IMG/VR virus record: IMGVR_UViG_3300045988_143923
Direction: 5' to 3' (one strand)
From: a virus
Length of the DNA: 64,000 bases
This document shows, piece by piece, positions 431 to 63,935 of this stretch (its first letter is position 1; each line of letters starts with the position of its first letter). The position numbers were made by a program, and so were the translations under genes. Under the pieces are notes generated by a model, which was given only the letters and a program-made list of their open reading frames with translations, was not told where the DNA came from and did not search any database.

Positions 431-523
431 TGGCAGAGATGGTTGGATTCGAACCAACGAGCGAGAGCGTTACCTCTCTTGGCGGAGTCAAATTCCGCTG
501 CCTTACCGCTTGGCCACACCTCT
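431..523 (-). tRNA. class-II tRNA (long variable arm), hand-folded anticodon UUG, G73, CCA encoded
   Basis: Reverse complement folds as acceptor AGAGGTG/CATCTCT, D arm GCC-AAGCGGTAA-GGC, anticodon stem GCGGA/TCCGC with loop ATTTGAC, ~23-nt variable region containing a GAGAG/CTCTC helix, T arm GTTGG-TTCGAAT-CCAAC. Confidence 0.6.
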
Positions 524-37884: not shown

Positions 37885-38286
37885 ATGAACGACAGAGACA
37901 TTCGCCGCGGCGACATTTTTTACATCAAGAACGATGACAACGCAGTAGGCTTCGAGCAGAAGAAAACCCGACCGGCCATCATCGTATCCAACAACGCCAA
38001 CAATCGCGCTTCCGGTGTGGTAGAGATCGTGTATCTGACCACATCGCAAAAGCATCGTCCGCTTCCGACTCACATTCGAGTTCGCGGTTACGTTCCGTCC
38101 ATTGCTCTCTGCGAACAGGTTGTGACGGTCGATGTGAGCCGCCTGATGGAGCGAATCGGCTGCTGCAGCTACGATGAAATGGAAGCGGTCAATTGCGGAC
38201 TGGCGGTTTCACTCGGCTTAAAGAGCGTAAATAGTTACTCATATCAGCAGGTTAGAAGTGAAAAGCCGTGGTTATTTGCCAAATAA
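37885..38286 (+). CDS. PemK/MazF-family toxin-like protein
   Basis: 133 aa; RRGDIFYI....G.EQKKTRPAIIVSNN.....GVVEIVYLTT......P.H......SIALCEQVVTVD..RL matches the MazF/PemK fold signature. Confidence 0.7.
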   Translation: MNDRDIRRGDIFYIKNDDNAVGFEQKKTRPAIIVSNNANNRASGVVEIVYLTTSQKHRPLPTHIRVRGYVPSIALCEQVVTVDVSRLMERIGCCSYDEMEAVNCGLAVSLGLKSVNSYSYQQVRSEKPWLFAK

Positions 38287-44614: not shown

Positions 44615-44708
44615 AGAGGAGTGGTGTAACGGTCAGCACGCAGGGTTCTAACCCCTGAGCAGGTGACACCCTGCGTCGGTCTGGGTTCGAGTCCCGGCTC
44701 CTCCGCCA
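44615..44708 (+). tRNA. amber suppressor tRNA (anticodon CTA), class-II scaffold
   Basis: Anticodon arm CAGGG-TTCTAAC-CCCTG (CTA at 44648-44650); 23-nt variable region with GCAGG/CCTGC helix; T arm CTGGG-TTCGAGT-CCCGG; acceptor AGAGGAG/CTCCTCC (A1-C72 mismatch); G73; CCA. Confidence 0.75.
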
Positions 44709-47684: not shown

Positions 47685-48095
47685 ATGGCAGACAATAATA
47701 CGAACTGGCAAGTAGTTCTTATTCGCGACGGAGAAATTTACGGATACATGGATGAACCGAATGTCTACGCAAGACACATGAAGGATGTCCCTCATCTTGT
47801 GTTTACGGCAGAAGGCGGTGTAAAAACTCTGCGAAGAGGTCGAACAAACACATGGAAAGCCAACGAGCTGTGCAGGGAACTGGAGAAGATCATCAGCCCG
47901 GAGTCTGCTGCGGAACATAAGAAAGAAAACAAACCGTATCTCGTCTACGGAATTGACATTAAAAGTCTCGAAAGAATGCTTGTTCCGAATGCAGAAATGT
48001 TCCCGATTGAGGTAACCGCCAAGATCAACGAACTGATTTCCGCAGTAAAGACACTTAACGAACGCTTTGAGGAGGATATTTACCATGCAGACTAA
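47685..48095 (+). CDS. hypothetical protein
   Basis: 136 aa, AAGGAG RBS. Confidence 0.6.
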   Translation: MADNNTNWQVVLIRDGEIYGYMDEPNVYARHMKDVPHLVFTAEGGVKTLRRGRTNTWKANELCRELEKIISPESAAEHKKENKPYLVYGIDIKSLERMLVPNAEMFPIEVTAKINELISAVKTLNERFEEDIYHAD

Positions 48096-48705
48096 ACCCA
48101 CGTTCTACATGATGGTCGGCGTGCCGGGTTCCGGCAAAACCACCTACGCCCACCAGATTCCGAACGCAACCGTGCTCTCAAGTGACGATATTCGCGCTGA
48201 GATCGGAGCAGACGGCGGCGACAAGAAAATGCACAAGCAGGTCTTCGATATCCTGCATGAGCGTACAAAGGAAACACTTTCTGTTGGTAAAGATGTTGTT
48301 TACGATGCAACGAATCTGCGGCATACGCGCCGCACCGAGCTTCTGAATGAGCTCAAGGGATTGGCTGACCACAAGGTTTGCGTTTACTTTGCAATCCCGT
48401 TGGAACAGGCGCTGTCCCAGAATGCCGACCGCGACACGCCGGTTCCGGAAGAAGTGATCAAGCGCATGAATCTGGAGCTGTGTGAGCCGAGAATTGATGA
48501 GGGCTGGGATGAAATCAAAGTCATCCGTAGTCTGCCGGAGCGCAACATCGACCGTATCCGCAAGATGACGGTTCGGAAGATGGCAGAATTCTTAATAAAC
48601 GAGTGCAGTGATGCTGTTGATCACGTTTTCGCTTACGCATCCGCAGAAAGAAAGGACTTGGTTGCTGATTGCGTCGATTGGCTGAACCGTCCTGCCGAGG
48701 ATTAA
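48085..48705 (+). CDS. P-loop kinase (AAA_33 / polynucleotide-kinase-like)
   Basis: 206 aa from ATG 48085 (GAGGAGG); VGVPGSGKTT Walker A, ...DATN... and R-rich lid typical of PNK/zeta-like kinases. Confidence 0.6.
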   Translation: MQTKPTFYMMVGVPGSGKTTYAHQIPNATVLSSDDIRAEIGADGGDKKMHKQVFDILHERTKETLSVGKDVVYDATNLRHTRRTELLNELKGLADHKVCVYFAIPLEQALSQNADRDTPVPEEVIKRMNLELCEPRIDEGWDEIKVIRSLPERNIDRIRKMTVRKMAEFLINECSDAVDHVFAYASAERKDLVADCVDWLNRPAED

Positions 48706-48912: not shown

Positions 48913-49198
48913 AGTCACGGGCTTGCGCAAACGAGCTCAGATTTTAGCTATGCTCGAAAGAGTGCATTGACTACCCTATGCACCGTAAGAGGTGCCCCGT
49001 TGCTCGCGAATAGATAGTTACCGCATAGCGTTAATCCTAACTGTGCGCTCTAAGACAACACATCACATAAAGCTGAGGTAAGGCCGACAGGTGTGGCTGA
49101 GTAAACCGCTTGCAACTTTGGGTAAGGATTTCGACTCCTCTTTAGAGGAGAACAGCTTCTTTTTAGTTGTTAATTTATTAGGAAAGGAGCGTGACATC
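48913..49198 (+). ncRNA. candidate omega-RNA (HEARO-type) upstream of iscB
   Basis: ORF-free, stem-rich (e.g. CTCCTC-TTTA-GAGGAG) and located where IscB guide RNAs are encoded; boundaries not determined. Confidence 0.45.
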
Positions 49199-50458
49199 AT
49201 GTATGTATACGTTATCAACAAGCATGGCGAGCCTTTGATGCCATGCTCATCACGCAAGGCTCGTACATTGTTGAACAATAAGAAAGCGTGTGTAGTGAAG
49301 CGCACGCCGTTTACCATCAAGCTCCTGCACGGCAGTGCAGGATACAAACAACCGATCACCCTCGGCGTTGACGCAGGAAGTAAACACATTGGTCTTTCTG
49401 TATCGACTGAAACTCATGAAATCTATCGCGAGGAGTTTGCGCCTCGTAATGATGTAGTGGATTTACTTTCTACACGCAGAGAATTCCGTCATGCAAGACG
49501 CAATCGAAAGACTCGCCACCGTGCACCGAGATTTAATAATCGCGTACATAGCAAACACAAGGGTTGGTTAGCTCCATCCGTAGAGGTTAAAATTCAGGAG
49601 CATATCACTGTTATTAAGCATGTGTGTCAGATTATGCCTATCTCGCTTGTTCGAGTGGAAACGGCAGAGTTCGACACGCAGCGCCTGAAAGCAATGATTG
49701 CAGGGAAACCTCTGCCGGTGGGTACAGATTATCAGTTTGGTGAAATGTACGACGAATACAATGTTCGTCAGTATGTATTGAAGCGTGATAACTATACTTG
49801 CCAGTGCTGTGGAGCACATGCAACAAAGACAAAGCAGGTTAAGCTGCATGTACATCATTTGGAGAGTCGAAAGGTAGGAGGTAATGCGCCAAATAATCTG
49901 ATTACTTTGTGTCCAATCTGTCATAAGGCTATCCATGAAGGTAAGAAAGCTCTTGGTAAGAAGAAACGCGGCAAGCCGCTTCGAGATGCTGCGTTCATGG
50001 GTATCATGCGAAAGACCCTGCTTGCTCGGCTGCGTGAAGAGTTATCAATCCCGGTGCAACAGACGTATGGCTACATTACTAAGATGCTTCGTGAGAAGAA
50101 TAATCTTCTTAAAAGCCACATGAATGATGCATTGTGCATTGCAAAACATCCGAAAGCAGCACCTTGCGAAAATTGTTATCGGTCGAAAGCCGTAAGGCAT
50201 CACAATCGGCAGATTCACAAGGCAACGATCCTTAAAGGCGGTATTCGTAAGAATAATCAAGCTCCATACATTGTAAAAGGTTTCCGCCTTTGGGACAAGG
50301 TTCTGTATAACGGACAGGAATGCTTTATCTCCGGACGACGTGCGACAGGATATTTTGCCTTGAAAAAGTTAGACGGCACGGTTGTTACCACCGGTGCATC
50401 ATATAAAAAGTTGCGGTTGTTGGAAACCACTAAAAATTATTTAAGAGAAAGGATGTGA
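49199..50458 (+). CDS. iscB: IscB-like RNA-guided nuclease (PLMP + RuvC + HNH)
   Basis: 419 aa from ATG 49199: GEPLMPC (PLMP), LGVDAGSKHIG (RuvC-I), Arg-rich bridge TRREFRHARRNRKTRHR, ETAEFD (RuvC-II), CQCCG...HVHHLESRKVGG...NLITLCPICHKAIH (HNH), SHMNDALCIA (RuvC-III). Confidence 0.8.
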   Translation: MYVYVINKHGEPLMPCSSRKARTLLNNKKACVVKRTPFTIKLLHGSAGYKQPITLGVDAGSKHIGLSVSTETHEIYREEFAPRNDVVDLLSTRREFRHARRNRKTRHRAPRFNNRVHSKHKGWLAPSVEVKIQEHITVIKHVCQIMPISLVRVETAEFDTQRLKAMIAGKPLPVGTDYQFGEMYDEYNVRQYVLKRDNYTCQCCGAHATKTKQVKLHVHHLESRKVGGNAPNNLITLCPICHKAIHEGKKALGKKKRGKPLRDAAFMGIMRKTLLARLREELSIPVQQTYGYITKMLREKNNLLKSHMNDALCIAKHPKAAPCENCYRSKAVRHHNRQIHKATILKGGIRKNNQAPYIVKGFRLWDKVLYNGQECFISGRRATGYFALKKLDGTVVTTGASYKKLRLLETTKNYLRERM

Positions 50459-54506: not shown

Positions 54507-54609
54507 GAAGCTCGGCAGTGTTCTGACAAGTATCTTCGGCGATGCGATAAAGGAAATGTCCGATGAGGACGAAAATAACAAAAACGAAGGAGAAAACAAA
54601 CATGAGTAA
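54433..54609 (+). CDS. 58-aa membrane protein (TTG start)
   Basis: AAGGAGAA RBS 8 nt upstream of TTG; TM helix then an acidic tail. Confidence 0.45.
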   Translation: MNPVFYALCIIAGVFIWACCAFMFKKLGSVLTSIFGDAIKEMSDEDENNKNEGENKHE

Positions 54610-55462
54610 GGGTGCAGTAGGCGGCGTTGTTCTAGCGGCCGCTCTGGTGTTCGGCGGTATCGGAGCTTTCGTGTGTACAGAACGAATCCCGACCGGCTAC
54701 GTCGGTGTGGTTTACAGCATGAACGGCGGCGTACAGGACGAGGTTCTAACACAGGGTTTCCATGTCGTAAGTCCGACCAAGAAGGTAAAGAGGTTCACCG
54801 TCGGCAATGAGCAGCTCGTTCTGACCAAGGATTCTCGCGACGGCAGTGAGGGCGACGATTCCTTTAACGTAGCAACGGCAGATAACGCCAACATCAATAT
54901 CAGCTTCCAGATGTCCTACCGATTTAAGCAGGACGAGGTTGTTGACACCTATAAGAAGTTCCGCGGTATGGACGGCGAGGACATCGTGAACAACCGTGTC
55001 CGCACGATTCTGAAATCTAAGATTTCAGAGGTCACGACCGATTACACTATGATGGATATCTATTCCGGTGACCGTGCGAAGATCAACACCCAGCTGACAG
55101 AGGCTCTTTCCGAGAAACTCGGTGACGAGTTCGGTATTGATGTTATCGACGCCTCTATCATCGACGTACATCCCGATGAGCAGCTGCAGCAGACGATCAA
55201 TGACCGTGTGACGGCAATGCAGAAGAAGCAGCAGGCTGAAGCGGAGCAGGAAACCATCAAGGTACAGAACCAGACGAAGATTCTGGAAGCGCAGGCTGAC
55301 GCGCAGGCCAAGCAGATTGCAGCAGAGGCAGAAGCAAAGGCAAACTCGACGATTTCTGCTTCTCTGACCGATAAGCTGCTCAAGAAAATGGAAATGGAAG
55401 CCCGCGAGAAGCATGGCTGGGTCACCGTTCAGGGCGGCACTGTAGTCACGGACACCAAGTAA
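54602..55462 (+). CDS. SPFH/Band-7 (prohibitin/HflC-like) membrane protein
   Basis: 286 aa from ATG 54602; N-terminal TM helix, VP.GYVGVVY...G....VL..GFH.V.P, Ala/Gln/Glu-rich coiled coil. Confidence 0.75.
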   Translation: MSKGAVGGVVLAAALVFGGIGAFVCTERIPTGYVGVVYSMNGGVQDEVLTQGFHVVSPTKKVKRFTVGNEQLVLTKDSRDGSEGDDSFNVATADNANINISFQMSYRFKQDEVVDTYKKFRGMDGEDIVNNRVRTILKSKISEVTTDYTMMDIYSGDRAKINTQLTEALSEKLGDEFGIDVIDASIIDVHPDEQLQQTINDRVTAMQKKQQAEAEQETIKVQNQTKILEAQADAQAKQIAAEAEAKANSTISASLTDKLLKKMEMEAREKHGWVTVQGGTVVTDTK

Positions 55463-55519: not shown

Positions 55520-55599
55520 AGTATATGTAGACAAAAAACGATAACAGTGTGGCGACGGCGGGAAAGACCGCTGACAGCCGGGAAAGACCGGCGATATAT

Positions 55600-55712
55600 G
55601 AGGAGTGTCCGGTGACAGAGTTATGGTGCGACGGGCGGGCGCACGAACAGCAAATACATACAAAAAACTTTCTGCAAAAAAGTTTCTCGCGGTTCGACTC
55701 CGCGGCTCCTCA
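55600..55712 (+). tRNA. tRNA-Cys(GCA)-like gene with a ~40-nt expansion of the D region
   Basis: Acceptor GAGGAGT/GCTCCTC, anticodon arm ACTTT-CTGCAAA-AAAGT, T arm CGCGG-TTCGACT-CCGCG; 60 nt (including hairpin GTGCG...CGCAC) where ~20 nt of D arm is expected; no CCA. Confidence 0.4.
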
Positions 55713-55733
55713 AAATTCCGCCAACTAAATATG

Positions 55734-55848
55734 TCCGGTGTAGCTCAATAGGCAGAGCGCGAAACATGTGGACTGATAAGTCCGCTGACAGCAATTTTCT
55801 TTTAGATTTGTAATCTCGATGCTGTCGGTTCGAATCCGGCCTCCGGGC
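55734..55848 (+). tRNA. tRNA-Thr(TGT)-like gene with a 42-nt insertion 5' of the anticodon loop
   Basis: Acceptor TCCGGTG/CTCCGGG (one mismatch), D arm GCTC-AATAGGCA-GAGC, 5' anticodon-stem CGAAA, insert 55765-55806, loop TTTGTAA, TCTCG, T arm GTCGG-TTCGAAT-CCGGC. Confidence 0.4.
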
Positions 55849-55969
55849 ACCTTCTTCTAAGTCACCGAGAAGTAAAAGAGAAAAAGGCGACTGAGCCGTG
55901 GGTTGACAGCCTACGCAGTTCTGAATCATCAGTTCTTTCGTCTGACAGCTCGGAAAAGACGAGCAACAA

Positions 55970-56046
55970 CGAGGTGTGGCTCAGCTTGGTAGAGCGCTTG
56001 CTTTGGGAGCAAGATGCCGCAGGTTCAAATCCTGTCACCTCGACCA
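55970..56046 (+). tRNA. tRNA-Pro (TGG)
   Basis: Acceptor CGAGGTG/CACCTCG, anticodon arm CTTGC-TTTGGGA-GCAAG, T arm GCAGG-TTCAAAT-CCTGT, CCA. Confidence 0.85.
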
Positions 56047-56304
56047 ATCCTCACCGTGCGGAGGAAATTATTTGTCCGTGAGCAAACTCTACTCACACAC
56101 ACCGCTTGGCACGGCAAGCGAACCCTCTCGAGAGCTGCTGAACGCATTTGGAGAAAATGTGCAAGGCAAAGGGTGGCGAACCAGCCTGGAACTTACCCTC
56201 TCTACAACTGGTTCGGAAAAACCGTTTCACTCTTCTTCACGGGCGTAAGGTAAGCCGAAGTAAGAAGAAAACCGGCGACGAGGTTGCAAACTCCCGCCGG
56301 ATAT
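56047..56304 (+). ncRNA. 258-nt ORF-free structured spacer within the tRNA array
   Basis: Consecutive helices: CCTC/GAGG, GTGAG/CTCAC, CGCTTG/CAAGCG, CTCTCGAGAG, TCTTCTT/AAGAAGA, CCGGCG/CGCCGG. Confidence 0.35.
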
Positions 56305-56378
56305 GCTCCAGTAGTTTAATGGCAGAGCATCAGATTTCCAATCTGATAGTGCGAGTTCGATCCTCGTCTGGAGCTCCA
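56305..56378 (+). tRNA. tRNA-Gly (TCC)
   Basis: Acceptor GCTCCAG/CTGGAGC, anticodon arm TCAGA-TTTCCAA-TCTGA, T arm CGAGT-TCGATCC-TCG region, CCA. Confidence 0.85.
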
Positions 56379-56381
56379 TAT

Positions 56382-56468
56382 GCCGGTGTGCCGGAATAGG
56401 CAGACGGGAGCGTCTCAAAAACGTCCGCTCAACAGAGCATCGGGGTTCAAGTCCCCGCATCGGCACCA
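56382..56468 (+). tRNA. tRNA-Leu (CAA)
   Basis: Class II; acceptor GCCGGTG/CATCGGC, loop CTCAAAA, variable helix GCTC/GAGC, T arm CGGGG-TTCAAGT-CCCCG, A73, CCA. Confidence 0.8.
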
Positions 56469-56471
56469 AAT

Positions 56472-56557
56472 GCGATTGTGGCGGAATTGGCAGACGCAGC
56501 GGATTTAAGCTCCGCTGGGAGATTCCCGTGAGAGTTCGAGCCTCTCCAGTCGCACCA
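56472..56557 (+). tRNA. tRNA-Leu (TAA)
   Basis: Class II; acceptor GCGATTG/CAGTCGC, anticodon arm GCGGA-TTTAAGC-TCCGC, variable helix GGGA/TCCC, A73, CCA. Confidence 0.85.
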
Positions 56558-56564
56558 TCAATAT

Positions 56565-56694
56565 ACGGCGGTAGCAAAGCGGTAATGCGTCATCCATAAA
56601 AAATGCGAGCTGACAAGTTCACTGACAGCAATCTTAACAGTAAAAAGATATGCCATGATGATAATCGCTGGTTCGACTCCAGCCCGCCGTACCA
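56565..56694 (+). tRNA. tRNA-Gly(GCC)-like gene with a 55-nt insertion 5' of the anticodon loop
   Basis: Perfect acceptor ACGGCGG/CCGCCGT, D arm GCA-AAGCGGTAA-TGC, anticodon stem TCATC...GATGA separated by the insert (~56595-56649) plus loop (C)TGCCAT, T arm GCTGG-TTCGACT-CCAGC, CCA. Confidence 0.45.
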
Positions 56695-56863
56695 CAGGGA
56701 CACTCACAGCAAAATTACAGGCTTTGACTTTTAATCAAAATACCTTTGTGTCCCGCATCCCTCCAAAGGGCGCGTACAGCCAATAAAAACTATCTCCATA
56801 AAACACTGGCAGGCTGATTCCCTGCAATGCGCCCTGTGGAATTAAAACAAGGAGGAAAAGAAA

Positions 56864-58417
56864 ATGGATTTTACAACCGCAATGGCTAACACGCTGAACG
56901 AAGATTACAACGTCAGCGTAACCGAGAACGGCGCTGTCGGTTACAGAACGACCGGCAAAGCGCTGCTCGACCTGAATTTCTCCGTAGCCTCGCTCCGCAG
57001 CGCAAGCGAAGCTGAGATCGTGAGTAAGTTCGTCAAGGCATTCTTCGAGGACAAAATGGCCGCGATGAAGTGGCTGTTCTTCGCCCGAGATGTTCGCGGT
57101 GGACTCGGCGAGCGCCGATTGTTCCGCACCGTAATGAAGTATCTGGCGGACAACCTGCCGGAATACGTCCGGCCAGTAATCGAGTTGATTGCAGAATACG
57201 GTCGCTATGATGACCTGCTGTGCCTGTTGGATACAGATTTGGAAGTAAAAGTTTTGGACTACATCTACTTTCAGTTCAATTATGACATCCATCGTTATGA
57301 AGAAGGTAATCCGATCTCACTGCTAGCAAAATGGCTTCCGTCTCCGGGCGCTTCTTCTTACAATTCCCGTCGATATGCAAAGATTATTTGTAATCGACTG
57401 AACTTCACTCAGAAGTATTACCGCCAGACTCTTTCCAAACTACGCGGCTATCTCGATGTAGTCGAGAAGAAAATGTCCGCAAAGCAGTGGGGCGAGATCA
57501 AATATGAAGCAGTCCCGTCCCGCGCAAATCTCATTTATAATAAGGCGTTTCTGAGGAACGATGAGGAGCGCCGCCGTGCTTATCTGGAAAGCCTCGCTAA
57601 GGGCGAAACCAAGATAAACGCAGGCACGCTGTTCCCGCACGAGATCGTCCATAAGTATGGCAACTCTGGATGGAATACAATCACCGAGTGTAACGAAACG
57701 CTCGAACAACTGTGGAAGGCTCTGCCTGATACGGTGAACGGCAACGGGAACACCATTGTCGTAGCGGACGGCAGCGGCAGTATGACCTGCGGCGTAGACC
57801 CGCACAGCAGCGTAACTGCACTGGACGTAGCAAATGCACTTGCGATTTACTTCGCGGAGCATTCCTCCGGCCAGTTCAAGGACAAGTACATCACGTTTTC
57901 CACTCGTCCTCGGCTGGTTGATTTCTCCAAAGCAAAGAACCTGCGTGAGAAGCTGTTAATCGCTAAGCAGCATAACGAGATGGGAAATACCAACATTGAA
58001 GCTGTTTTTAACCTGATTTTGACCACAGCGGTCAACAATCGAATGAAGCAGGAAGATATGCCGCAGAATATTCTCATCATCTCCGATATGGAGTTCGACT
58101 CCTGTGCAACTTGCGGCAGTCAAACGGGTTACTGGAGCCGAAAGCGGCCGGATTCCCGTCTGTTTAACGTGATTCGTCAGAAATATGAAGCAGCCGGTTA
58201 TAAACTGCCGCGCCTCGTGTTCTGGAATGTCAACAGCCGCACCGGAACCATTCCGGTTAAGGAAAACGATCTCGGTGTTGCTCTGGTCAGCGGCTTCAGC
58301 CAGAATGTAGCTTCTATGGTGATGAGCGGTAAGCTCGACCCGTATGAATGCCTGATGGAAACGCTAAACAGTAAGAGATATGATCCAATCGCGAAAGCAC
58401 TGGAGGGGATTGCGTGA
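56864..58417 (+). CDS. DUF2828-like (TROVE-like) + vWA domain protein
   Basis: 517 aa; N-terminal ...TENGAVGY.TTGKALLDLNF........WLFFARDVRGGLGERRLFR...; MIDAS motif VVADGSGSMT. Confidence 0.65.
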   Translation: MDFTTAMANTLNEDYNVSVTENGAVGYRTTGKALLDLNFSVASLRSASEAEIVSKFVKAFFEDKMAAMKWLFFARDVRGGLGERRLFRTVMKYLADNLPEYVRPVIELIAEYGRYDDLLCLLDTDLEVKVLDYIYFQFNYDIHRYEEGNPISLLAKWLPSPGASSYNSRRYAKIICNRLNFTQKYYRQTLSKLRGYLDVVEKKMSAKQWGEIKYEAVPSRANLIYNKAFLRNDEERRRAYLESLAKGETKINAGTLFPHEIVHKYGNSGWNTITECNETLEQLWKALPDTVNGNGNTIVVADGSGSMTCGVDPHSSVTALDVANALAIYFAEHSSGQFKDKYITFSTRPRLVDFSKAKNLREKLLIAKQHNEMGNTNIEAVFNLILTTAVNNRMKQEDMPQNILIISDMEFDSCATCGSQTGYWSRKRPDSRLFNVIRQKYEAAGYKLPRLVFWNVNSRTGTIPVKENDLGVALVSGFSQNVASMVMSGKLDPYECLMETLNSKRYDPIAKALEGIA

Positions 58418-58465
58418 TACTTCTTCTGTACTTTCTGATTTGTATCATTGTCAGCGGAGCAAATT

Positions 58466-58600
58466 ATGCCTTTTCTCAAAACCCCGAAGAGCGAAGGCTT
58501 CGATCCTGATGAATTCGATGTACTCATGGTTGTCGCAGGGCTTTTATGGCCTCTTGTTGTCGGAATGGCCATTGCATATGGTCTATTCAAAGACAATTGA
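58466..58600 (+). CDS. 44-aa membrane peptide
   Basis: ATG 58466; hydrophobic VLMVVAGLLWPLVVGMAIAYGLF; weak RBS. Confidence 0.3.
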   Translation: MPFLKTPKSEGFDPDEFDVLMVVAGLLWPLVVGMAIAYGLFKDN

Positions 58601-58625
58601 TCGATGGGAAACGAAAGGAGAACAA

Positions 58626-59174
58626 ATGAAAGTTTTAGTAGTAGTGGATATGCAGAATGACTTCATCGATGGCGCTCTCGGTACGCCGGAAGCAAAAGCT
58701 ATTGTTTCAAAGGTAGTCGAAAAAATCAAAGCTGTCGGTGATGACGATATTATTTGCGTAACAAAGGACACACATTACGCGGATTATCTCGATACACAAG
58801 AGGGGAAATTGCTCCCGATTCCTCACTGCCTTGTGGAAACGCACGGTTGGGAGATCGAGCAGACTGTTCAGAATGAATTAGACAAACGAGGGGAAACTCT
58901 CGTATTCGAGAAAGAAACGTTCGGTTCTGTTGATCTTGGTGACGCACTGGATTTGGTTTGGATCGACAATCTGGATGAAATTATTTTGGTTGGCCTTTGC
59001 ACAGACATTTGCGTTATTTCCAACGCTTTGCTTATCAAAGCATATCTCCCAGAGGTAAAGATCACAGTAGATGCGTCCTGCTGTGCCGGAACAACGCCTG
59101 AAAACCATAAGAATGCGCTGGCAGCCATGAAAATGTGCCAGATTAACATCGAAAACGAGGAGGAAGCCGTATGA
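58626..59174 (+). CDS. isochorismatase-family hydrolase, nicotinamidase (PncA)-like
   Basis: 182 aa from ATG 58626 (RBS AAAGGAGAA); VVVDMQNDF, ...KD.H, LVGLCTDICV catalytic Cys motif. Confidence 0.7.
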   Translation: MKVLVVVDMQNDFIDGALGTPEAKAIVSKVVEKIKAVGDDDIICVTKDTHYADYLDTQEGKLLPIPHCLVETHGWEIEQTVQNELDKRGETLVFEKETFGSVDLGDALDLVWIDNLDEIILVGLCTDICVISNALLIKAYLPEVKITVDASCCAGTTPENHKNALAAMKMCQINIENEEEAV

Positions 59175-59965
59175 TTTCCGTAAATGGGGACCCGATTGAT
59201 TTTACCTGTTTTCCAGACGGAACGACTTCGTTTCGTTACGATCCAAGCTTGGAAGAAGAGGAGTTTGTCATCCAGTGGAAGTATGATGGTGATCATGAGT
59301 GCATTTTGCTGTGGTATCTGGTTCATCGTATACGAAGCTATGACTCTCGTGCTGAGATTATACTTCAGCTTCCGTATATTCCCAACGCGAGAATGGATCG
59401 TGTTAAAAGCTCTGACGAAGTTTTCACATTAAAATACTTTGCAGAGTTTATCAATAGTCTGTCTTTTGATTTTGTGGTTGTTCGTGATCCACATTCTAAT
59501 GTAGCCCCAGCATTGCTCAATAACGTTAAGGTTCTCGATGCTAGATATTATATCATGCAAGCAATCGCGAATTGTATGACATGCGGAGAGGATTTGCTGC
59601 TCTGTTACCCTGATGAAGGAGCTGCAAAACGTTACACTGAGCTTCTGAAGCGCGAGCACGTTTTCTGTATCAAACACCGCGACTGGCGCACGGGGAATAT
59701 CGAGGGGTTGGAGCTGACCAACCCGGAACTTGTCGAAGGACGCAACGTTCTGATTGTAGATGACATCTGCTCTCGCGGCGGTACGTTCACTCATACAGCC
59801 AAAGCACTCAGAGAAGCCGGGGCGAAGGATATTTTCCTTTATATCACCCATTGCGAAAACACCATCAAAAAGGGCACAATTCTGACTGACGGCCTGATTA
59901 AGCACGTTTACACCACCGGAAGCATTTATCGCGGCAACCACGAAATGATTACGGTTCTGTTCTGA
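59171..59965 (+). CDS. ribose-phosphate pyrophosphokinase (Prs)-like protein; NARP1 Adps candidate
   Basis: 264 aa; PRPP/phosphoribosyltransferase loop VLIVDDICSRGGT; Prs-like two-domain length; coupled to the NAMPT-like gene. Confidence 0.65.
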   Translation: MISVNGDPIDFTCFPDGTTSFRYDPSLEEEEFVIQWKYDGDHECILLWYLVHRIRSYDSRAEIILQLPYIPNARMDRVKSSDEVFTLKYFAEFINSLSFDFVVVRDPHSNVAPALLNNVKVLDARYYIMQAIANCMTCGEDLLLCYPDEGAAKRYTELLKREHVFCIKHRDWRTGNIEGLELTNPELVEGRNVLIVDDICSRGGTFTHTAKALREAGAKDIFLYITHCENTIKKGTILTDGLIKHVYTTGSIYRGNHEMITVLF

Positions 59966-59980
59966 TAAGGAGACGAAACA

Positions 59981-61474
59981 ATGATTGACTACAATCCGCT
60001 GCTGTGCTTGGACTTCTACAAGACCTGCCACGCCGAACAGTATCCGAAGGGACTGACCCGTATGGTCAGCTATTATACGCCGCGAATGTCTCGTCTGGCA
60101 GACACAGATAAGGTAACGATGTTCGGCTTGCAAGCGTTCATCAAGGAATACCTGATTGACGGCTTTAACAAATATTTTTTCGAGCGAGATTTCGAAAAGG
60201 AAATCCTCCCGGAGTACAAGCGTGTGCTTGGCGCAACAATCGGAACTTCCGGCGTGGGCAAAGAGCGGCTGCTGAAGCTGCATAATCTCGGCTTTCTGCC
60301 TCTGATAATCAAGGCAGTTCCGGAAGGAACACGGACTAACATTCATGTGCCGCAGATCGAGATTACCAATACGTTGCCATCTTTTGTCTGGTTGGTAAAC
60401 AGCATTGAAACCATGCTGTCCTGCACAATGTGGCACACGCAGGTTTCTGCGGAGGTTGGCTATCGGTATCGCCAGATCGTCAACAAGTACGCAGACCTGA
60501 CCTGCGACGACGATGTTGACCGCGCCCGACTTCTCGGTGATTTCTCGATGAGAGGACAGGAGAGCGTCGAGAGCGCAACAAAGAGCTCGGCAGCGTTTCT
60601 GTTGAGTTTTCTCAATACAGCGACTGTCCCGGCTATTCTTTGGTTGGAACGAAATTATAACTGCAGCTGCGATCAGGAACCGGTTGGATATGGTGGTATT
60701 TCGACCGAACACAGCGTAATGTGCTCCAATGCCGCAGTTGACGGTGATGAGATTACACATCTGCGCCGACTGCTCACCGAGATTTATCCGCATAGCAGTT
60801 TCTCCGTTGTGTCTGACAGCTACGACTATTGGAATTTAGTTGATAAGCTGTTGCCGCAGCTCAAGAACGAAATCCTTGAACACAATGGAACTCTTTCTAT
60901 TCGCGGTGACAGCGGTGATCCGGTCGAGGTTGTCACCCAGACAGTATTTCATCTCTGGAATATTTTTGGCGGCACGAGAAACAGCAAGGGATTCAAAGTT
61001 CTGAATCCGCATATCAAGGCGCTGTACGGAGACAGCATTACGCCGCAGCGTTGCGAAAAGATTTACTCAATCCTGAAAGAGAATGGGTTCGCAATTAACA
61101 ACGTGGCTTTGGGTGTCGGCTCCTTCTCCATGGAATGTCTGGAGACGATTGACGAAAATGGAAATGTCCAGTATAACCCGTATACGAGAGACACGTTCGG
61201 CATCGCGGTCAAGGCAACCTACGCAGAGGATGAGAACGGGCCGATTATGATTTTCAAAAATCCAAAGACGGACACCGGCCATTTTAAGAAGTCCCAGCGC
61301 GGATGCTGTATCGTGCGGGAGAACGACGGCGAGTATTCTTACGAGGACGGACACACCTTTAAGGAAACATACGACCTTGATAATGAGATGGCACCTGTAT
61401 TCATCCACGGTAATATGGTCAATGAATACACGCTGGCAGAGGTGCGCGACAGATTGCACGGAGGTAAATTCTAA
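59981..61474 (+). CDS. NAMPT-family phosphoribosyltransferase (NadV/Namat-like)
   Basis: 497 aa; N-terminal NPLLCLDFYKTCHAEQYP (compare N..L.TDSYK..H..QYP), ...RGDSGDP..., ...GVGSF... Confidence 0.75.
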   Translation: MIDYNPLLCLDFYKTCHAEQYPKGLTRMVSYYTPRMSRLADTDKVTMFGLQAFIKEYLIDGFNKYFFERDFEKEILPEYKRVLGATIGTSGVGKERLLKLHNLGFLPLIIKAVPEGTRTNIHVPQIEITNTLPSFVWLVNSIETMLSCTMWHTQVSAEVGYRYRQIVNKYADLTCDDDVDRARLLGDFSMRGQESVESATKSSAAFLLSFLNTATVPAILWLERNYNCSCDQEPVGYGGISTEHSVMCSNAAVDGDEITHLRRLLTEIYPHSSFSVVSDSYDYWNLVDKLLPQLKNEILEHNGTLSIRGDSGDPVEVVTQTVFHLWNIFGGTRNSKGFKVLNPHIKALYGDSITPQRCEKIYSILKENGFAINNVALGVGSFSMECLETIDENGNVQYNPYTRDTFGIAVKATYAEDENGPIMIFKNPKTDTGHFKKSQRGCCIVRENDGEYSYEDGHTFKETYDLDNEMAPVFIHGNMVNEYTLAEVRDRLHGGKF

Positions 61475-62226
61475 TGGGAAACGCAAAGACACTGAAAAAT
61501 CATATTGTCCAGTGGATTATGAACTACTTCGAAGATAACGGCAAAGACTGTTACGCCGTTGTTGGCATCTCTGGAGGGAAGGACAGCAGCGTTGTTGCCG
61601 CTCTCTGCGCTGAGGCACTCGGCAAAGACCGTGTTGTCGGCGTGCTGATGCCGAATGACAAACAGTCAGACATCGAAGATTCGTACCGGTTGGTTGAGGC
61701 TCTCGGAATCAAAAGTGTCGAAATCAATGTCGGCGACGCTTATTCTATGATGCTCAGCGAAGGTTCGCACGAACTACCTATCAGCAAGCAGGCGGAGGTA
61801 AATCTGGCACCCAGACTTCGAATGGCGGCTCTGTACATGGTAGCGCAGTCTTTAGAGCACGGCGGCCGCGTAGCTAACACCTGCAATTATTCCGAAGACT
61901 ACGTTGGTTACTCCACCAAGTACGGTGACAGCGCCGGTGATTTCAGTCCACTGTCCGGCTTGCTTGTCAGCGATGTCGTAGCGGTCGGTCACGAGCTGCC
62001 GATCCCTGCCGATCTGGTGGACAAGACTCCATCTGACGGACTTTGCGGAAAGTCTGACGAGTCAAATCTCGGTTTTACTTACGCTCAGTTGGAGAAGCAT
62101 ATCGTAGATGGCAGCTGTGGTGATCGAGAGATCGACAAGAAGATTTGCAATCTGCATTATAAGAACCTTCACAAGATTACGCCCATGCCGTATTTCAAAA
62201 AGCAGTTGCCCCTGGAAGGCTTCTAA
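61474..62226 (+). CDS. nadE: NH3-dependent NAD+ synthetase
   Basis: 250 aa; PP-loop GISGGKDSSVVAAL; ...GTxNxSE-like NTCNYSEDYVGYSTKYGD. Confidence 0.8.
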   Translation: MGNAKTLKNHIVQWIMNYFEDNGKDCYAVVGISGGKDSSVVAALCAEALGKDRVVGVLMPNDKQSDIEDSYRLVEALGIKSVEINVGDAYSMMLSEGSHELPISKQAEVNLAPRLRMAALYMVAQSLEHGGRVANTCNYSEDYVGYSTKYGDSAGDFSPLSGLLVSDVVAVGHELPIPADLVDKTPSDGLCGKSDESNLGFTYAQLEKHIVDGSCGDREIDKKICNLHYKNLHKITPMPYFKKQLPLEGF

Positions 62227-62264
62227 GCTACAGGTTTGCGGTCAACCTTAAACCGCACTTTTAC

Positions 62265-62335
62265 GGGTGAGTGGTGAACAGGAAACACCGGAGAGTAATA
62301 TCATCGAAAAGCAGGTTCGAATCCTGCCTCACCCG
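62265..62335 (+). ncRNA. tRNA-like element with degenerate anticodon arm
   Basis: Acceptor GGGTGAG/CTCACCC, D arm GTG-AACAGGAAA-CAC, T arm GCAGG-TTCGAAT-CCTGC; the 17 nt in the anticodon-arm position (GGAGAGTAATATCATCG) do not pair; no CCA. Confidence 0.4.
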
Positions 62336-62437
62336 AATCGCACCGCAGATCAACAAGGCTTGCAAGCACCTGCGGTGAACAGTCCGTGCCTGCGAGGTGT
62401 CGTCGGACTATAATTCAGAAAAAACGCCTCGCTACAT

Positions 62438-63857: not shown

Positions 63858-63935
63858 GCTGGCATGGCGCAATTGGTAGCGCATCTGAGTTGTAATCAGA
63901 GGGTTTTCTCGGTTCGATTCCGAGTGCCAGCTCCA
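63858..63935 (+). tRNA. tRNA-Thr (TGT)
   Basis: Acceptor GCTGGCA/TGCCAGC, anticodon arm TCTGA-GTTGTAA-TCAGA, T arm CTCGG-TTCGATT-CCGAG, CCA. Confidence 0.85.

What the first reader, a model, noticed from the sequence alone, without database searches (positions are those of the whole stretch)
55600..56694. Three tRNA-like genes carrying 40-55-nt insertions, two of them at the same position just 5' of the anticodon loop
Three genes are affected:
- 56565-56694 has a perfect 7-bp acceptor stem, D arm, T arm and CCA. Its anticodon stem halves TCATC/GATGA are separated by a 55-nt insert followed by a normal loop (C)UGCCAU (Gly-GCC). Excising the insert gives a 75-nt canonical tRNA.
- 55734-55848 has the same layout: a 42-nt insert, then loop UUUGUAA (Thr-UGU).
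- 55600-55712 has normal acceptor, anticodon (Cys-GCA) and T arms but ~40 extra nt in the D region.

The two anticodon-side inserts both begin with CAT and share CTGACAGCAAT. The inserts are far too short for group I introns, and bacteria and phages are not known to use protein-spliced tRNA introns. The options are a new kind of small tRNA intervening sequence, tRNAs disrupted by a mini-insertion element, regulated or inactive pro-tRNAs, or tRNA-like scaffolds displaying an extra domain. An intact tRNA-Thr(UGU) also exists at 63858.
Basis: seen in the sequence. Interest (0 to 1): 0.7.

Follow-up and report, generated by a model that had tools for sequence, protein, structure and literature searches.

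The report
Ro60-partner RNA module inside phage tRNAs
The three "interrupted tRNAs" each carry a conserved small RNA module (a hairpin followed by CAGCAA) that in hundreds of phages is encoded right next to a Ro60-like RNA-binding protein, so they look like tRNA-based partners of that protein rather than classical introns or broken genes.

Summary
Two genes (55734-55848, 56565-56694) are tRNAs with 42- and 55-nt inserts. A third (55600-55712) is tRNA-like with about 45 extra nt in its D region. The inserts do not sit at the same site: 32/33 in Gly, 28/29 in Thr.

All three inserts are one module: a covarying hairpin, a 1-4 nt linker, then invariant CAGCAA.

- The module occurs in dozens of different phage tRNAs, at D-loop, anticodon-stem and anticodon-loop positions.
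- It also occurs as about 60-nt stand-alone RNAs; two lie at 56697-56835.
- It always sits beside one gene, here 56864-58417 (DUF2828+DUF7788). The predicted fold of that protein matches Ro60/TROVE.
- In 71 loci chosen by this protein alone, CAGCAA reaches 0.6-0.8 copies per 100 nt just upstream of the gene, against about 0.03 elsewhere.
- Cultured phages carry it too (Listeria A511, Felix O1-like, mycobacteriophage MiniMac, Lak).

Best reading: these are Y-RNA-like ligands of a Ro60-like protein, built into tRNAs. Deleting the module restores canonical tRNAs, so splicing remains possible, but I found no splicing machinery or splice-site structure. The stand-alone RNAs resemble Dictyostelium Class I RNAs, below the Rfam threshold.

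Verdict: new variant of a known kind, high interest.

The parts
55600..55712 (+). tRNA-like RNA no. 1. It has acceptor, T arm and a CUGCAAA anticodon-type hairpin, and the module replaces or occupies the D region. P2 hairpin 55626-55644 (GTGCG-ACGGGCGGG-CGCAC), linker GAA, CAGCAA 55648-55653.
   Evidence: Read directly. ARAGORN gives 107 after a 45-nt deletion. It belongs to a conserved family that comes first in the array in many phages. Rfam does not call it a tRNA.
55734..55848 (+). tRNA-Thr(UGU) carrying a 42-nt module in the 5' strand of the anticodon stem. Insert about 55763-55804, P2 55768-55785 (GTGGAC-TGATAA-GTCCGC), linker TGA, CAGCAA 55789-55794. G-1:C73 gives an 8-bp acceptor stem; no CCA is encoded.
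   Evidence: Rfam tRNA 34.6 bits. The deletion scan gives ARAGORN 117.3. Orthologues were compared.
56565..56694 (+). tRNA-Gly(GCC) carrying a 55-nt module between positions 32 and 33. Insert 56596-56650, P2 56605-56622 (GCGAGC-TGACAA-GTTCAC), linker TGA, CAGCAA 56626-56631. CCA is encoded.
   Evidence: ARAGORN with introns allowed. Rfam tRNA 47.6 bits. The anticodon stem changes by compensation in L007/L009: TCATC/GATGA becomes CCCCC/GGGGG.
56697..56754 (+). Stand-alone 58-nt CAGCAA RNA. Terminal stem GGGACAC/GTGTCCC, linker TCA, CAGCAA 56707-56712, variable interior.
   Evidence: Read directly. It aligns end to end with Rfam Class I RNA at 15.6 bits, below threshold. The same type makes up 122 of 249 sites upstream of DUF2828 genes.
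56767..56835 (+). Second stand-alone RNA of the same design. Terminal stem AGGGCGC/GCGCCCT and a degenerate motif CAGCCAA at 56777-56783. Relatives have CAGCAA here.
   Evidence: Read directly. Relatives L001-L011 show GGGCGC-tca/ta-CAGCAA at the matching place.
56864..58417 (+). Gene for a 517-aa DUF2828 + DUF7788 (vWA with an intact DxSxS MIDAS motif) protein with a Ro60/TROVE-like fold. It is the inferred protein partner of the CAGCAA module. An AGGAGG ribosome-binding site lies just upstream.
   Evidence: Pfam. AlphaFold2 model with pLDDT 72.9. The top 11 Foldseek PDB hits are all Ro60/TROVE, E 2e-8 to 2e-5. BFVD search. Co-occurrence.
55970..56557 (+). Uninterrupted tRNAs of the same array (Pro-UGG, Gly-UCC, Leu-CAA, Leu-UAA) and a 258-nt spacer (56047-56304).

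Best explanation
The inserts are copies of one conserved RNA module: a helix, a 1-4 nt linker, then single-stranded CAGCAA, usually followed by A or U.

**What I infer it is.** This module marks a widespread class of small phage RNAs encoded next to, and on the same strand as, a Ro60-like protein (DUF2828/DUF7788: a TROVE-like ring plus a vWA domain). I infer that the module is the binding site for that protein. The RNAs would then be functional analogues of Y RNAs.

**How it appears in genomes.** In most phages the module is a stand-alone RNA of about 60 nt closed by a terminal stem. In this gut-phage lineage it is also built into real tRNA genes, as a discrete 32-60 nt unit placed in the D loop, the 5' strand of the anticodon stem, or the anticodon loop.

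**Likely function.** The product would be a tRNA body tethered to the Ro60-like ring, much as the tRNA-like domain of bacterial YrlA is tethered to Ro60. The likely role is handling tRNAs or the enzymes that bind them (repair, quality control, or countering host tRNA-targeting defences) during infection.

**What is shown and what is not.**
- Shown: the module, its covariation, its spread, and its tight linkage to the gene.
- Inferred: that the protein binds the module.
- Speculative: the cellular role.
- Unresolved: whether the module is later cut out to release a working tRNA.
For: **1. One module in all three window genes and in many unrelated phage tRNAs.**
- Seen: - Six of the seven hairpin pairs show changes on both sides. 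The covariation score is 1.0, against 0.35 in shuffles and 0.2 or less when the partners are slid.
- Without pre-selection, 54% of tRNA-context sites have the hairpin, against 5.8% of other sites.

**2. Only one window protein is shared with the loci found by the RNA pattern.**
- That protein is DUF2828. It is present in 53 of 78 loci at 32-97% identity. In every one of those loci it lies just downstream of the module tRNA on the same strand.
- Most of the remaining loci end before the gene could appear.
- The same link holds in bacterial MAG contigs.

**3. The reciprocal test holds.**
- I took 71 loci picked by protein homology alone.
- CAGCAA on the gene's strand reaches 0.56-0.82 per 100 nt in the 500 nt upstream. 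Background is about 0.03, and the opposite strand has about 0.
- 70 of 71 loci have at least 2 copies within 1.2 kb upstream.
- Of 249 unique sites, 122 are the terminal-stem type and 89 are tRNA-embedded.

**4. The protein is Ro60-like.**
- All 11 Foldseek PDB hits with E <= 1e-3 are Ro60/TROVE, aligned over the full length.
- The MIDAS residues are invariant.
- Homologues in mycobacteriophages are annotated 'Ro-like RNA binding protein'.

**5. L016 carries a YrlA-like RNA with the motif in its terminal stem.**
- The full YrlA model aligns at 28.5 bits, and CTGACAGCAA sits in the terminal stem. That is where Ro60 binds Y RNAs (PMC4201824, PMC12135203).

**6. Cultured phages have CAGCAA RNAs beside the gene.**
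- They are A511, Andreotti, MiniMac, FADO, phiSHEF13 and Lak-B6.

**7. The module outlasts the tRNA.**
- In L011, L007/L009 and the tRNA-like no. 1 family, the module is kept although no canonical tRNA can be rebuilt.
Against: - No binding data exist. The link is genomic and structural only.
- The protein model is of medium confidence (pLDDT 72.9, TM 0.4-0.57 to Ro60). No sequence-level hit to TROVE or to Ro60 in the PDB was found.
- The RNAs do not reach the Rfam YrlA threshold. They also lack its GNCGAA motif.
- A pure scaffold reading does not explain why the exons keep complete canonical anticodon arms. These include a loop split exactly between C32 and U33.
- It also does not explain why the rebuilt tRNAs score as high as normal ones.
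- The hairpin covariation set was pre-selected for pairing.
- The predicted helix between the two linkers is not supported against shuffles.
Confidence: 0.72

Rival explanations
1. The inserts are true intervening sequences. The module is excised from the precursor and the halves are rejoined, for example by RtcB, to give working tRNAs. The Ro60-like protein would act as a cofactor, or the released module would be the actual product. This can coexist with the best explanation.
For: - Deleting one contiguous 32-60 nt segment gives canonical tRNAs for most copies. The median ARAGORN score is 117.3, against 115.0 for 226 uninterrupted tRNAs of the same loci.
- More than 20 anticodons are represented.
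- The Gly loop is split cleanly at 32/33.
- The anticodon stem changes by compensation across the insert.
- In some phages nearly every tRNA of the cluster carries the module.
- L007 and L011 carry the same 40-42 nt unit at different sites of one gene. Each gene is uninterrupted where the other is interrupted.
- Listeria phage A511 encodes a 'tRNA splicing ligase' 1.3 kb downstream of its DUF2828 gene.
- Lak phages, which have reported 'enigmatic' tRNA introns (10.1101/356790), also encode a DUF2828 homologue with a CAGCAA RNA.
Against: - The junctions lie at variable distances from the module (0-12 nt on the 5' side, 1-23 nt on the 3' side), with no shared splice-site structure.
- The bulge-helix-bulge motif is seen in 2 of 60 precursors, against 7.6 expected.
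- Pairing between the two linkers is not significant.
- No endonuclease, RtcB or Rnl was found in the 64-kb window or near the clusters.
- The deletion scan picks the best of about 800 deletions, so its scores are optimistic.
- Several copies cannot be rebuilt into canonical tRNAs.
Confidence: 0.35
2. The insert is a selfish miniature mobile DNA element that lands in tRNA genes and inactivates them. Its position next to DUF2828 would be incidental.
For: The same unit sits at two positions of one gene in two close relatives. Some host tRNAs look degenerate (L011, L007/L009).
Against: - Hairpin sequences differ and covary even within one genome, which is not what recent copies look like.
- The motif is strictly strand-specific and tied to one gene across 32-97% protein identity and across phyla.
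- No transposase is consistently linked to it.
- Exons stay canonical.
Confidence: 0.05
3. The insert is a small self-cleaving or self-splicing ribozyme, or an archaeal-type intron spliced by protein.
For: The size range and hairpin content are compatible with small ribozymes. Its positions in the D and anticodon arms recall archaeal non-canonical introns.
Against: - No Rfam ribozyme or intron family hits even at E up to 10.
- At 42-55 nt it is far below group I or II size.
- There is no bulge-helix-bulge enrichment.
- The same motif occurs in stand-alone RNAs that have nothing to splice.
Confidence: 0.04

Closest known systems
Bacterial and phage Y RNAs of the YrlA type with Ro60 (Rsr) (Chen et al. 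2014, PMC4201824; Thermus phage phiLo Ro60 with Yrl1/2, PMC12135203)
   Same: - Small RNAs are encoded within about 1 kb of a Ro60-fold protein, on the same strand.
- A stem carries a conserved unpaired motif.
- A tRNA-like domain is attached.
- Both occur in phages.
- One relative (L016 1840-1947) aligns to the whole YrlA model.
   Different: - The protein is DUF2828/DUF7788, not Pfam TROVE.
- The motif is CAGCAA, not GNCGAA.
- Scores stay below the YrlA threshold (28.5 bits or less, against 69).
- The tRNA part is a complete real tRNA with its own termini and anticodon arm, and the module is inserted inside it. That is the reverse topology of YrlA.
- There are several RNAs per locus.
Dictyostelium Class I RNAs (Rfam RF01414; Kjellin et al. 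2021, PMC7919456)
   Same: - About 56-62 nt long.
- A 5-7 bp terminal stem of variable, covarying sequence.
- The conserved motif lies directly after the 5' strand (Class I: CCUUACAGCAA; phage: cU[ga/ua]ACAGCAA). They agree at the positions reported as near-invariant.
- The interior is variable and A/U-rich.
- The 3' end is often CUG(U).
- Six phage RNAs align end to end with the model.
   Different: - All scores (15.6-25.7 bits) are below the gathering score of 41.5.
- Class I RNAs were reported as unique to Dictyostelia, with their own promoter element.
- Their known binder is an RRM protein.
- I could not test whether Dictyostelium has a DUF2828 protein that binds them.
'Enigmatic' tRNA introns of Lak megaphages (Devoto et al., 10.1101/356790)
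   Same: Phage tRNA genes are interrupted by short conserved inserts of unknown mechanism. Lak-B6 also encodes a DUF2828 homologue with a CAGCAA RNA just upstream.
   Different: I did not examine the Lak introns themselves. One of them was described as containing a tRNA-like sequence. No CAGCAA module or protein partner was reported.
Archaeal non-canonical tRNA introns (bulge-helix-bulge, cut by EndA) and the box C/D RNA inside the archaeal tRNA-Trp intron
   Same: Short inserts lie at several positions of the D and anticodon arms. A functional small RNA can be housed inside a tRNA gene.
   Different: There is no bulge-helix-bulge motif. A conserved sequence motif is present. The hosts are bacterial phages. 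No EndA was found.

Membership tests
tRNA (Rfam RF00005) | Cloverleaf scoring at or above the gathering score of 29 bits | tested here: met
   56565-56691 scores 47.6 bits and 55734-55848 scores 34.6 bits, with the insert treated as a loop insertion. 55600-55712 is not detected by Rfam. It scores only ARAGORN 107 after deletion, so that gene is tRNA-like, not a confirmed tRNA.
Group I / group II self-splicing introns | Conserved catalytic core and a size of roughly 200 nt or more | tested here: not met
   The inserts are 42-55 nt. No intron family appears in Rfam at E up to 10.
Archaeal/eukaryal protein-spliced tRNA introns | Bulge-helix-bulge motif at the splice sites | tested here: not met
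   2 of 60 unique precursors fit a relaxed bulge-helix-bulge pattern, against 7.6 expected from intron shuffles.
Y RNA, YrlA type (RF02553) | Encoded next to a Ro60 orthologue and on the same strand | tested here: met
   with the caveat that the protein is Ro60-like by fold, not a Pfam TROVE member.
Y RNA, YrlA type (RF02553) | Covariance-model score at or above gathering (69 bits) and the GNCGAA motif | tested here: not met
   The best score is 28.5 bits, in L016. There is no hit in the window. The motif is CAGCAA.
Y RNA (functional definition) | Bound by the Ro60-family protein | not testable with these tools
   Needs RIP/CLIP or a gel-shift assay.
Ro60/TROVE proteins (for ORF 56864-58417) | HEAT-repeat ring plus a vWA domain with MIDAS | tested here: met
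   All top 11 Foldseek PDB hits are Ro60/TROVE over more than 500 aligned columns. D302-x-S304-x-S306 is invariant. The model is of medium confidence.
Ro60/TROVE proteins (for ORF 56864-58417) | Sequence match to Pfam TROVE or to solved Ro60 structures | tested here: not met
   Pfam gives only DUF2828, DUF7788 and a weak VWA_2 hit. phmmer and hmmsearch against the PDB find no Ro60.
Dictyostelium Class I RNA (RF01414) | Short terminal stem, the 11-nt motif directly after the 5' strand, and a length of about 60 nt | tested here: met
   Window 56697-56754 (58 nt, GGGACAC stem, UCACAGCAA). Also the A511, L016 and L074 RNAs. The median length is 62 nt.
Dictyostelium Class I RNA (RF01414) | Covariance-model score at or above gathering (41.5 bits) | tested here: not met
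   Scores are 15.6 (window), 22.3 (L016), 25.7 and 20.4 (L074), and 23.1 and 19.6 (A511) bits.

The most novel reading that the evidence does not exclude
DUF2828 proteins and helix+CAGCAA RNAs form a second, ancient Ro60/Y-RNA-like ribonucleoprotein family. It would span phages of many bacterial phyla, giant viruses and eukaryotes. The Dictyostelium Class I RNAs, whose function has been unknown for 20 years, would be its eukaryotic members. In gut phages the same module would act as a true tRNA intervening sequence that is excised and religated, for example by RtcB, with the Ro60-like protein as cofactor. That would be the first splicing of tRNAs in the bacterial world that is neither self-splicing nor archaeal-type.
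Probability: 0.15. Interest if true: 0.95.

Novelty: new variant of a known kind. Interest (0 to 1): 0.8.

Why it matters
**Why it would matter if true**

- It gives a large uncharacterised protein family a predicted RNA ligand and a testable function. DUF2828 has more than 8000 database relatives and is present in 711 sequenced phage records. The phages include Felix O1-like phages, Listeria A511, mycobacteriophages and Lak megaphages.
- It explains at least one set of 'enigmatic' interrupted phage tRNAs.
- It shows a Ro60-type system in which real tRNA genes, not just tRNA mimics, carry the protein-binding element. That ties Ro60 biology directly to tRNA handling during infection.
- The element is small, modular and portable, which makes it attractive as a tool. 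Culturable hosts exist for experiments.
- The resemblance to Dictyostelium Class I RNAs suggests a concrete candidate partner for an orphan eukaryotic RNA class.

Tried and rejected
**Checks that gave negative results or led nowhere**

- **Promoter reading of CTGACAGC.** The upstream TG is not conserved outside this lineage. The downstream -10 matches are poor, and the promoter scan found nothing above chance.
- **Box C/D, GNRA tetraloop, hammerhead and pistol readings.** Rejected by inspection. The linker is variable, no pseudoknot partner exists, and there are no Rfam hits.
- **tmRNA-like reading frame after GCA.** It is not consistent across copies.
- **Helix between the 5' and 3' linkers (P1).** Not supported. 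The mean z-score is -0.04 against composition-preserving shuffles. Only the composition is asymmetric: A-rich on the 5' side, U-rich on the 3' side.
- **Bulge-helix-bulge motif.** Not enriched.
- **RNA ligase, RtcB or endonuclease.** None in the window ORFs. None among conserved neighbours of the clusters, whose other shared genes are terminase, HU, PP2C and kinase. The window does hold an AAA_33 kinase (48067-48705), a metallophosphoesterase and a MazF-like toxin. None of these is linked to the module across loci.
- **Sequence-level link of the protein to Ro60.** None found.
- **Intron-less alleles of the interrupted tRNAs.** Only the L007/L011 pair was found.
- **Literature.** No paper in the held library connects DUF2828 with these RNAs. 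Avesson 2011 and the Wolin reviews could not be read.
- **Dictyostelium DUF2828.** I could not determine whether Dictyostelium DDB_G0281243 is a DUF2828 protein.
Full report
**1. The observation**

Default ARAGORN finds 13 tRNAs in the window and none of the three reported genes.
- With introns allowed, it calls 56565-56694 as tRNA-Gly(GCC) with a 55-nt insert between positions 32 and 33.
- The Rfam tRNA model scores that gene 47.6 bits and 55734-55848 at 34.6 bits. The gathering score is 29. In both cases it skips a long insertion in the anticodon region.
- 55600-55712 has a 7-bp acceptor stem, a T arm and a CUGCAAA hairpin, with about 45 extra nt where the D arm should be. Rfam does not call it.
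- The intact tRNA-Thr(UGU) at 63858 exists.

One detail is wrong: the two anticodon-side inserts are not at the same place. In the Thr gene the parse that scores best, and the only one supported by ten orthologues, is ...GAGCG-CG|insert|AGA-UUUGUAA-UCUCG. That puts the insert in the 5' strand of the anticodon stem at 28/29.

**2. One module in all three genes**

Alignment with relatives shows that each insert has three parts: a hairpin (P2) whose sequence varies but stays paired, a 1-4 nt linker (often UGA), and the invariant hexamer CAGCAA, usually followed by A or U.

| Gene | Hairpin | Linker | Motif |
|---|---|---|---|
| Gly | GCGAGC-UGACAA-GUUCAC | UGA | CAGCAA |
| Thr | GUGGAC-UGAUAA-GUCCGC | UGA | CAGCAA |
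| tRNA-like no. 1 | GUGCG-ACGGGCGGG-CGCAC | GAA | CAGCAA |

- On 27 copies with the same geometry, 6 of 7 hairpin pairs show changes on both sides. The covariation score is 1.0, against 0.35 in shuffles and 0.2 or less when partners are slid. Those copies were pre-selected for pairing.
- An unselected count gives the same message. A strong hairpin ends 0-4 nt upstream of 54% of CAGCAA sites in tRNA context, against 5.8% of other CAGCAA sites in the same loci.

**3. Spread**

A pattern scan of the viral collection for CTGACAGCAA followed by a T loop returned 78 stretches with about 55 distinct contexts. The module sits in many unrelated phage tRNAs.

I deleted every possible segment around each of 103 module copies and rescored with ARAGORN.
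- About three quarters became canonical tRNAs after loss of one contiguous 32-60 nt piece (median 46 nt).
- More than 20 anticodons were represented.
- The last 5'-exon nucleotide was position 28 (19 cases), 29 (9), 32 (8), 30 (6), 38 (4) and others. Lower-scoring cases lay in the D loop.
- Their scores (median 117.3) equal those of 226 uninterrupted tRNAs from the same loci (median 115.0). The scan picks the best of about 800 deletions, so this is optimistic.
- In some phages almost every tRNA of a cluster carries the module.

In L007 and L011 the same 40-42 nt unit (GUUUUC-P2-GCG-CAGCAA-UUUUCUU) sits at two different sites of the orthologous gene. Each gene is uninterrupted where the other is interrupted. 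The unit is therefore discrete and can change place.

**4. Stand-alone copies**

Right after the Gly gene lie two RNAs of a second type.
- 56697-56754: GGGACAC-UCA-CAGCAA-...-GUGUCCC.
- 56767-56835: AGGGCGC-GUA-CAGCCAA-...-GCGCCCU. Relatives have CAGCAA at this place.

Here the helix that precedes the motif is formed by the two ends of the RNA. This is a circular permutation of the tRNA-embedded form.

**5. The partner gene**

I ran all 84 window ORFs by tblastn against the loci found by the RNA pattern.
- Only one ORF is widely shared: 56864-58417. It is present in 53 of 78 loci at 32-97% identity, always just downstream of the module tRNA on the same strand.
- Most other loci stop before the gene could appear.
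- All-against-all clustering of the ORFs in the loci gave no second widely shared family.
- In bacterial genome and MAG contigs, true modules again come with this gene. The contigs are from Lachnospiraceae, Ruminococcus, Oscillospiraceae, Roseburia, Blautia and one Meiothermus. Chance pattern matches lack the gene.

The reciprocal test is the strongest result. I took 71 viral loci picked only by homology to the protein (60-68% identity).
- CAGCAA on the gene's strand reaches 0.56-0.82 copies per 100 nt in the 500 nt upstream.
- Elsewhere the density is about 0.03, and in that upstream stretch the opposite strand has essentially none.
- 70 of 71 loci have at least two copies within 1.2 kb, with a mean of 4.9.
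- Of 249 unique sites, 122 are stand-alone (median 62 nt) and 89 are tRNA-embedded.

**6. What the protein is**

- Pfam gives DUF2828 plus DUF7788 and a weak vWA match.
- An AlphaFold2 model (pLDDT 72.9) finds, as its 11 best PDB matches, only Ro60/TROVE proteins. These include Thermus phage phiLo Ro60, Deinococcus Rsr, and Xenopus and human Ro60. E-values run from 2e-8 to 2e-5 over more than 500 aligned columns.
- In BFVD it matches DUF2828 proteins of phages and giant viruses first, then 'TROVE domain' and 'Ro-like RNA binding' proteins.
- The MIDAS motif DxSxS is invariant.
- No sequence-level link to Ro60 was found.

**7. Relation to Y RNAs**

Ro60 proteins of bacteria and phages bind Y RNAs. 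These RNAs are encoded beside the gene on the same strand, and they carry a stem with a conserved unpaired motif and a tRNA-like domain (PMC4201824, PMC12135203).

Locus L016 holds an RNA (1840-1947) that aligns to the whole Rfam YrlA model at 28.5 bits, below the threshold of 69. Its terminal stem reads AGGAUA-CUGACAGCAAUUUU-...-UAUCCU. That puts the motif exactly where Ro60 binds Y RNAs.

The window RNAs do not hit YrlA, and the motif differs from YrlA's GNCGAA. I therefore file them as working like Y RNAs, not as members of YrlA.

**8. Cultured phages**

tblastn finds the protein in 711 phage records. Seven were sampled, and six have CAGCAA RNAs beside the gene.

| Phage | CAGCAA RNAs beside the gene |
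|---|---|
| Listeria A511 | Three, upstream. An annotated 'tRNA splicing ligase' lies 1.3 kb downstream. |
| Escherichia phage Andreotti (Felix O1-like) | Five sites downstream, four with the AGACC/GGUCU terminal-stem design, inside the tRNA array. |
| Mycobacterium phage MiniMac | Three, downstream of its 'Ro-like RNA binding protein'. |
| Bacillus FADO | Four. |
| Enterococcus phiSHEF13 | Two. |
| Prevotella phage Lak-B6 | One. |
| Vibrio CZ01 | None convincing. |

Lak phages are the ones for which 'enigmatic' tRNA introns were reported.

**9. Splicing or not**

For splicing:
- The exons are complete and canonical.
- A loop is split cleanly at 32/33.
- The anticodon stem changes by compensation across the insert (TCATC/GATGA to CCCCC/GGGGG).
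- A wide range of isoacceptors carries the module.
- The unit can move.
- A511 links the system to RtcB.

Against splicing:
- The junctions lie at variable distances from the module.
- There is no bulge-helix-bulge signal (2 of 60 against 7.6 expected).
- Pairing between the linkers is not significant.
- No nuclease or ligase is linked to the clusters.
- Several copies cannot be rebuilt into tRNAs but keep the module. These are L011, L007/L009 and the tRNA-like no. 1 family.

I therefore commit to the module being the ligand of the Ro60-like protein (0.72). I give splicing about one chance in three.

**10. An unexpected resemblance**

The stand-alone phage RNAs align end to end with Rfam's Dictyostelium Class I RNA model.

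| RNA | Score (bits) |
|---|---|
| L016 | 22.3 |
| L074 | 25.7 and 20.4 |
| A511 | 23.1 and 19.6 |
| Window 56698-56755 | 15.6 |

The gathering score is 41.5. Class I RNAs are about 60 nt long. They have a short covarying terminal stem, an 11-nt motif (Rfam consensus CCUUACAGCAA) directly after the 5' strand, and a CUGU end. Their function is unknown, and they were reported as unique to Dictyostelia (PMC7919456).

The A511 RNAs read GGAAU-CUAACAGCAAUUA...GAUUCCUG(U). DUF2828 also occurs in eukaryotes' giant viruses. One protein pulled down with a Class I RNA, DDB_G0281243, has no known function. I could not test whether it is a DUF2828 protein. This is a lead, not a finding.

**11. Verdict**

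The finding is real and not ordinary. It is a new variant of the Ro60/Y-RNA theme. The protein branch is different, the RNA motif is different, and the motif is inserted as a portable unit inside genuine tRNA genes.

Noticed in passing
window 56697-56835; L269 (Listeria phage A511) 2688-2832; L016 2141-2195; L074(-) 668-836: Stand-alone CAGCAA RNAs share length, terminal stem, motif position and CUG(U) end with Dictyostelium Class I RNAs. They align end to end with RF01414 at 15.6-25.7 bits, below the threshold of 41.5.
   Followed up: partly
window 49091-50458 (+); L013 14095-14337 (-): The ORF has RRXRR and HNH domains, which is an IscB-like architecture. A relative locus has a full HEARO RNA hit (139 bits). 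No HEARO hit was seen in the window itself.
   Followed up: no
window 37885-38286 (+): A MazF/PemK-type endoribonuclease toxin gene (E 2e-22) sits inside the phage window. It is not linked to the module in other loci.
   Followed up: no
window 44615-44708 (+) and 431-523 (-): tRNA(CUA), called 'Pyl' by ARAGORN, and tRNA-Gln(UUG) are 93-94 nt long, so they have long extra arms. A CUA suppressor tRNA hints at TAG recoding. Neither contains CAGCAA.
   Followed up: no
window 62264-62336 (+); also L005, L006, L007, L009: This tRNA-like gene is called with a 2-nt 'anticodon' (aa), meaning a 6-nt loop. It is conserved in relatives.
   Followed up: no
window 54563-55462 (+); L272 (Mycobacterium phage MiniMac) 243-1175: A Band-7/SPFH gene lies just upstream of the tRNA, CAGCAA RNA and Ro60-like block, both in this gut phage and in a mycobacteriophage. 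This may be conserved synteny.
   Followed up: no
window 55555-55599 (+); L052(-) 1-55: Two short hairpins with GGGAAAGACC loops flank CTGACAGCC directly upstream of tRNA-like no. 1. They are conserved in distant relatives. CTGACAGC also precedes tRNA-Pro at 55942. This could be a processing or promoter signal.
   Followed up: no
window 56047-56304 (+): The spacer between tRNA-Pro and tRNA-Gly(UCC) is 258 nt here, against about 107 nt in close relatives. A terminator-like hairpin lies at 56048-56065. The rest is unexplained.
   Followed up: no
L269 (Listeria phage A511) 5836-7047: An annotated 'tRNA splicing ligase' and an HD phosphohydrolase lie 1-2 kb downstream of the DUF2828 gene on the same strand. 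This recalls the bacterial rsr-yrlBA-rtcBA operon.
   Followed up: partly
window 58380-62226 (+): An NAD salvage and synthesis cluster follows the Ro60-like gene: isochorismatase-family, PRPP synthetase-like, NAMPT-like and NAD synthase genes.
   Followed up: no
window 55626-55644 and family members: In the tRNA-like no. 1 family the P2 loop is G-rich (ACGGGCGGG, CGGACGG, GUGGUGGG). It can pair with the conserved 5' segment UCCG/UCUG. This may be a pseudoknot that replaces the D arm.
   Followed up: partly
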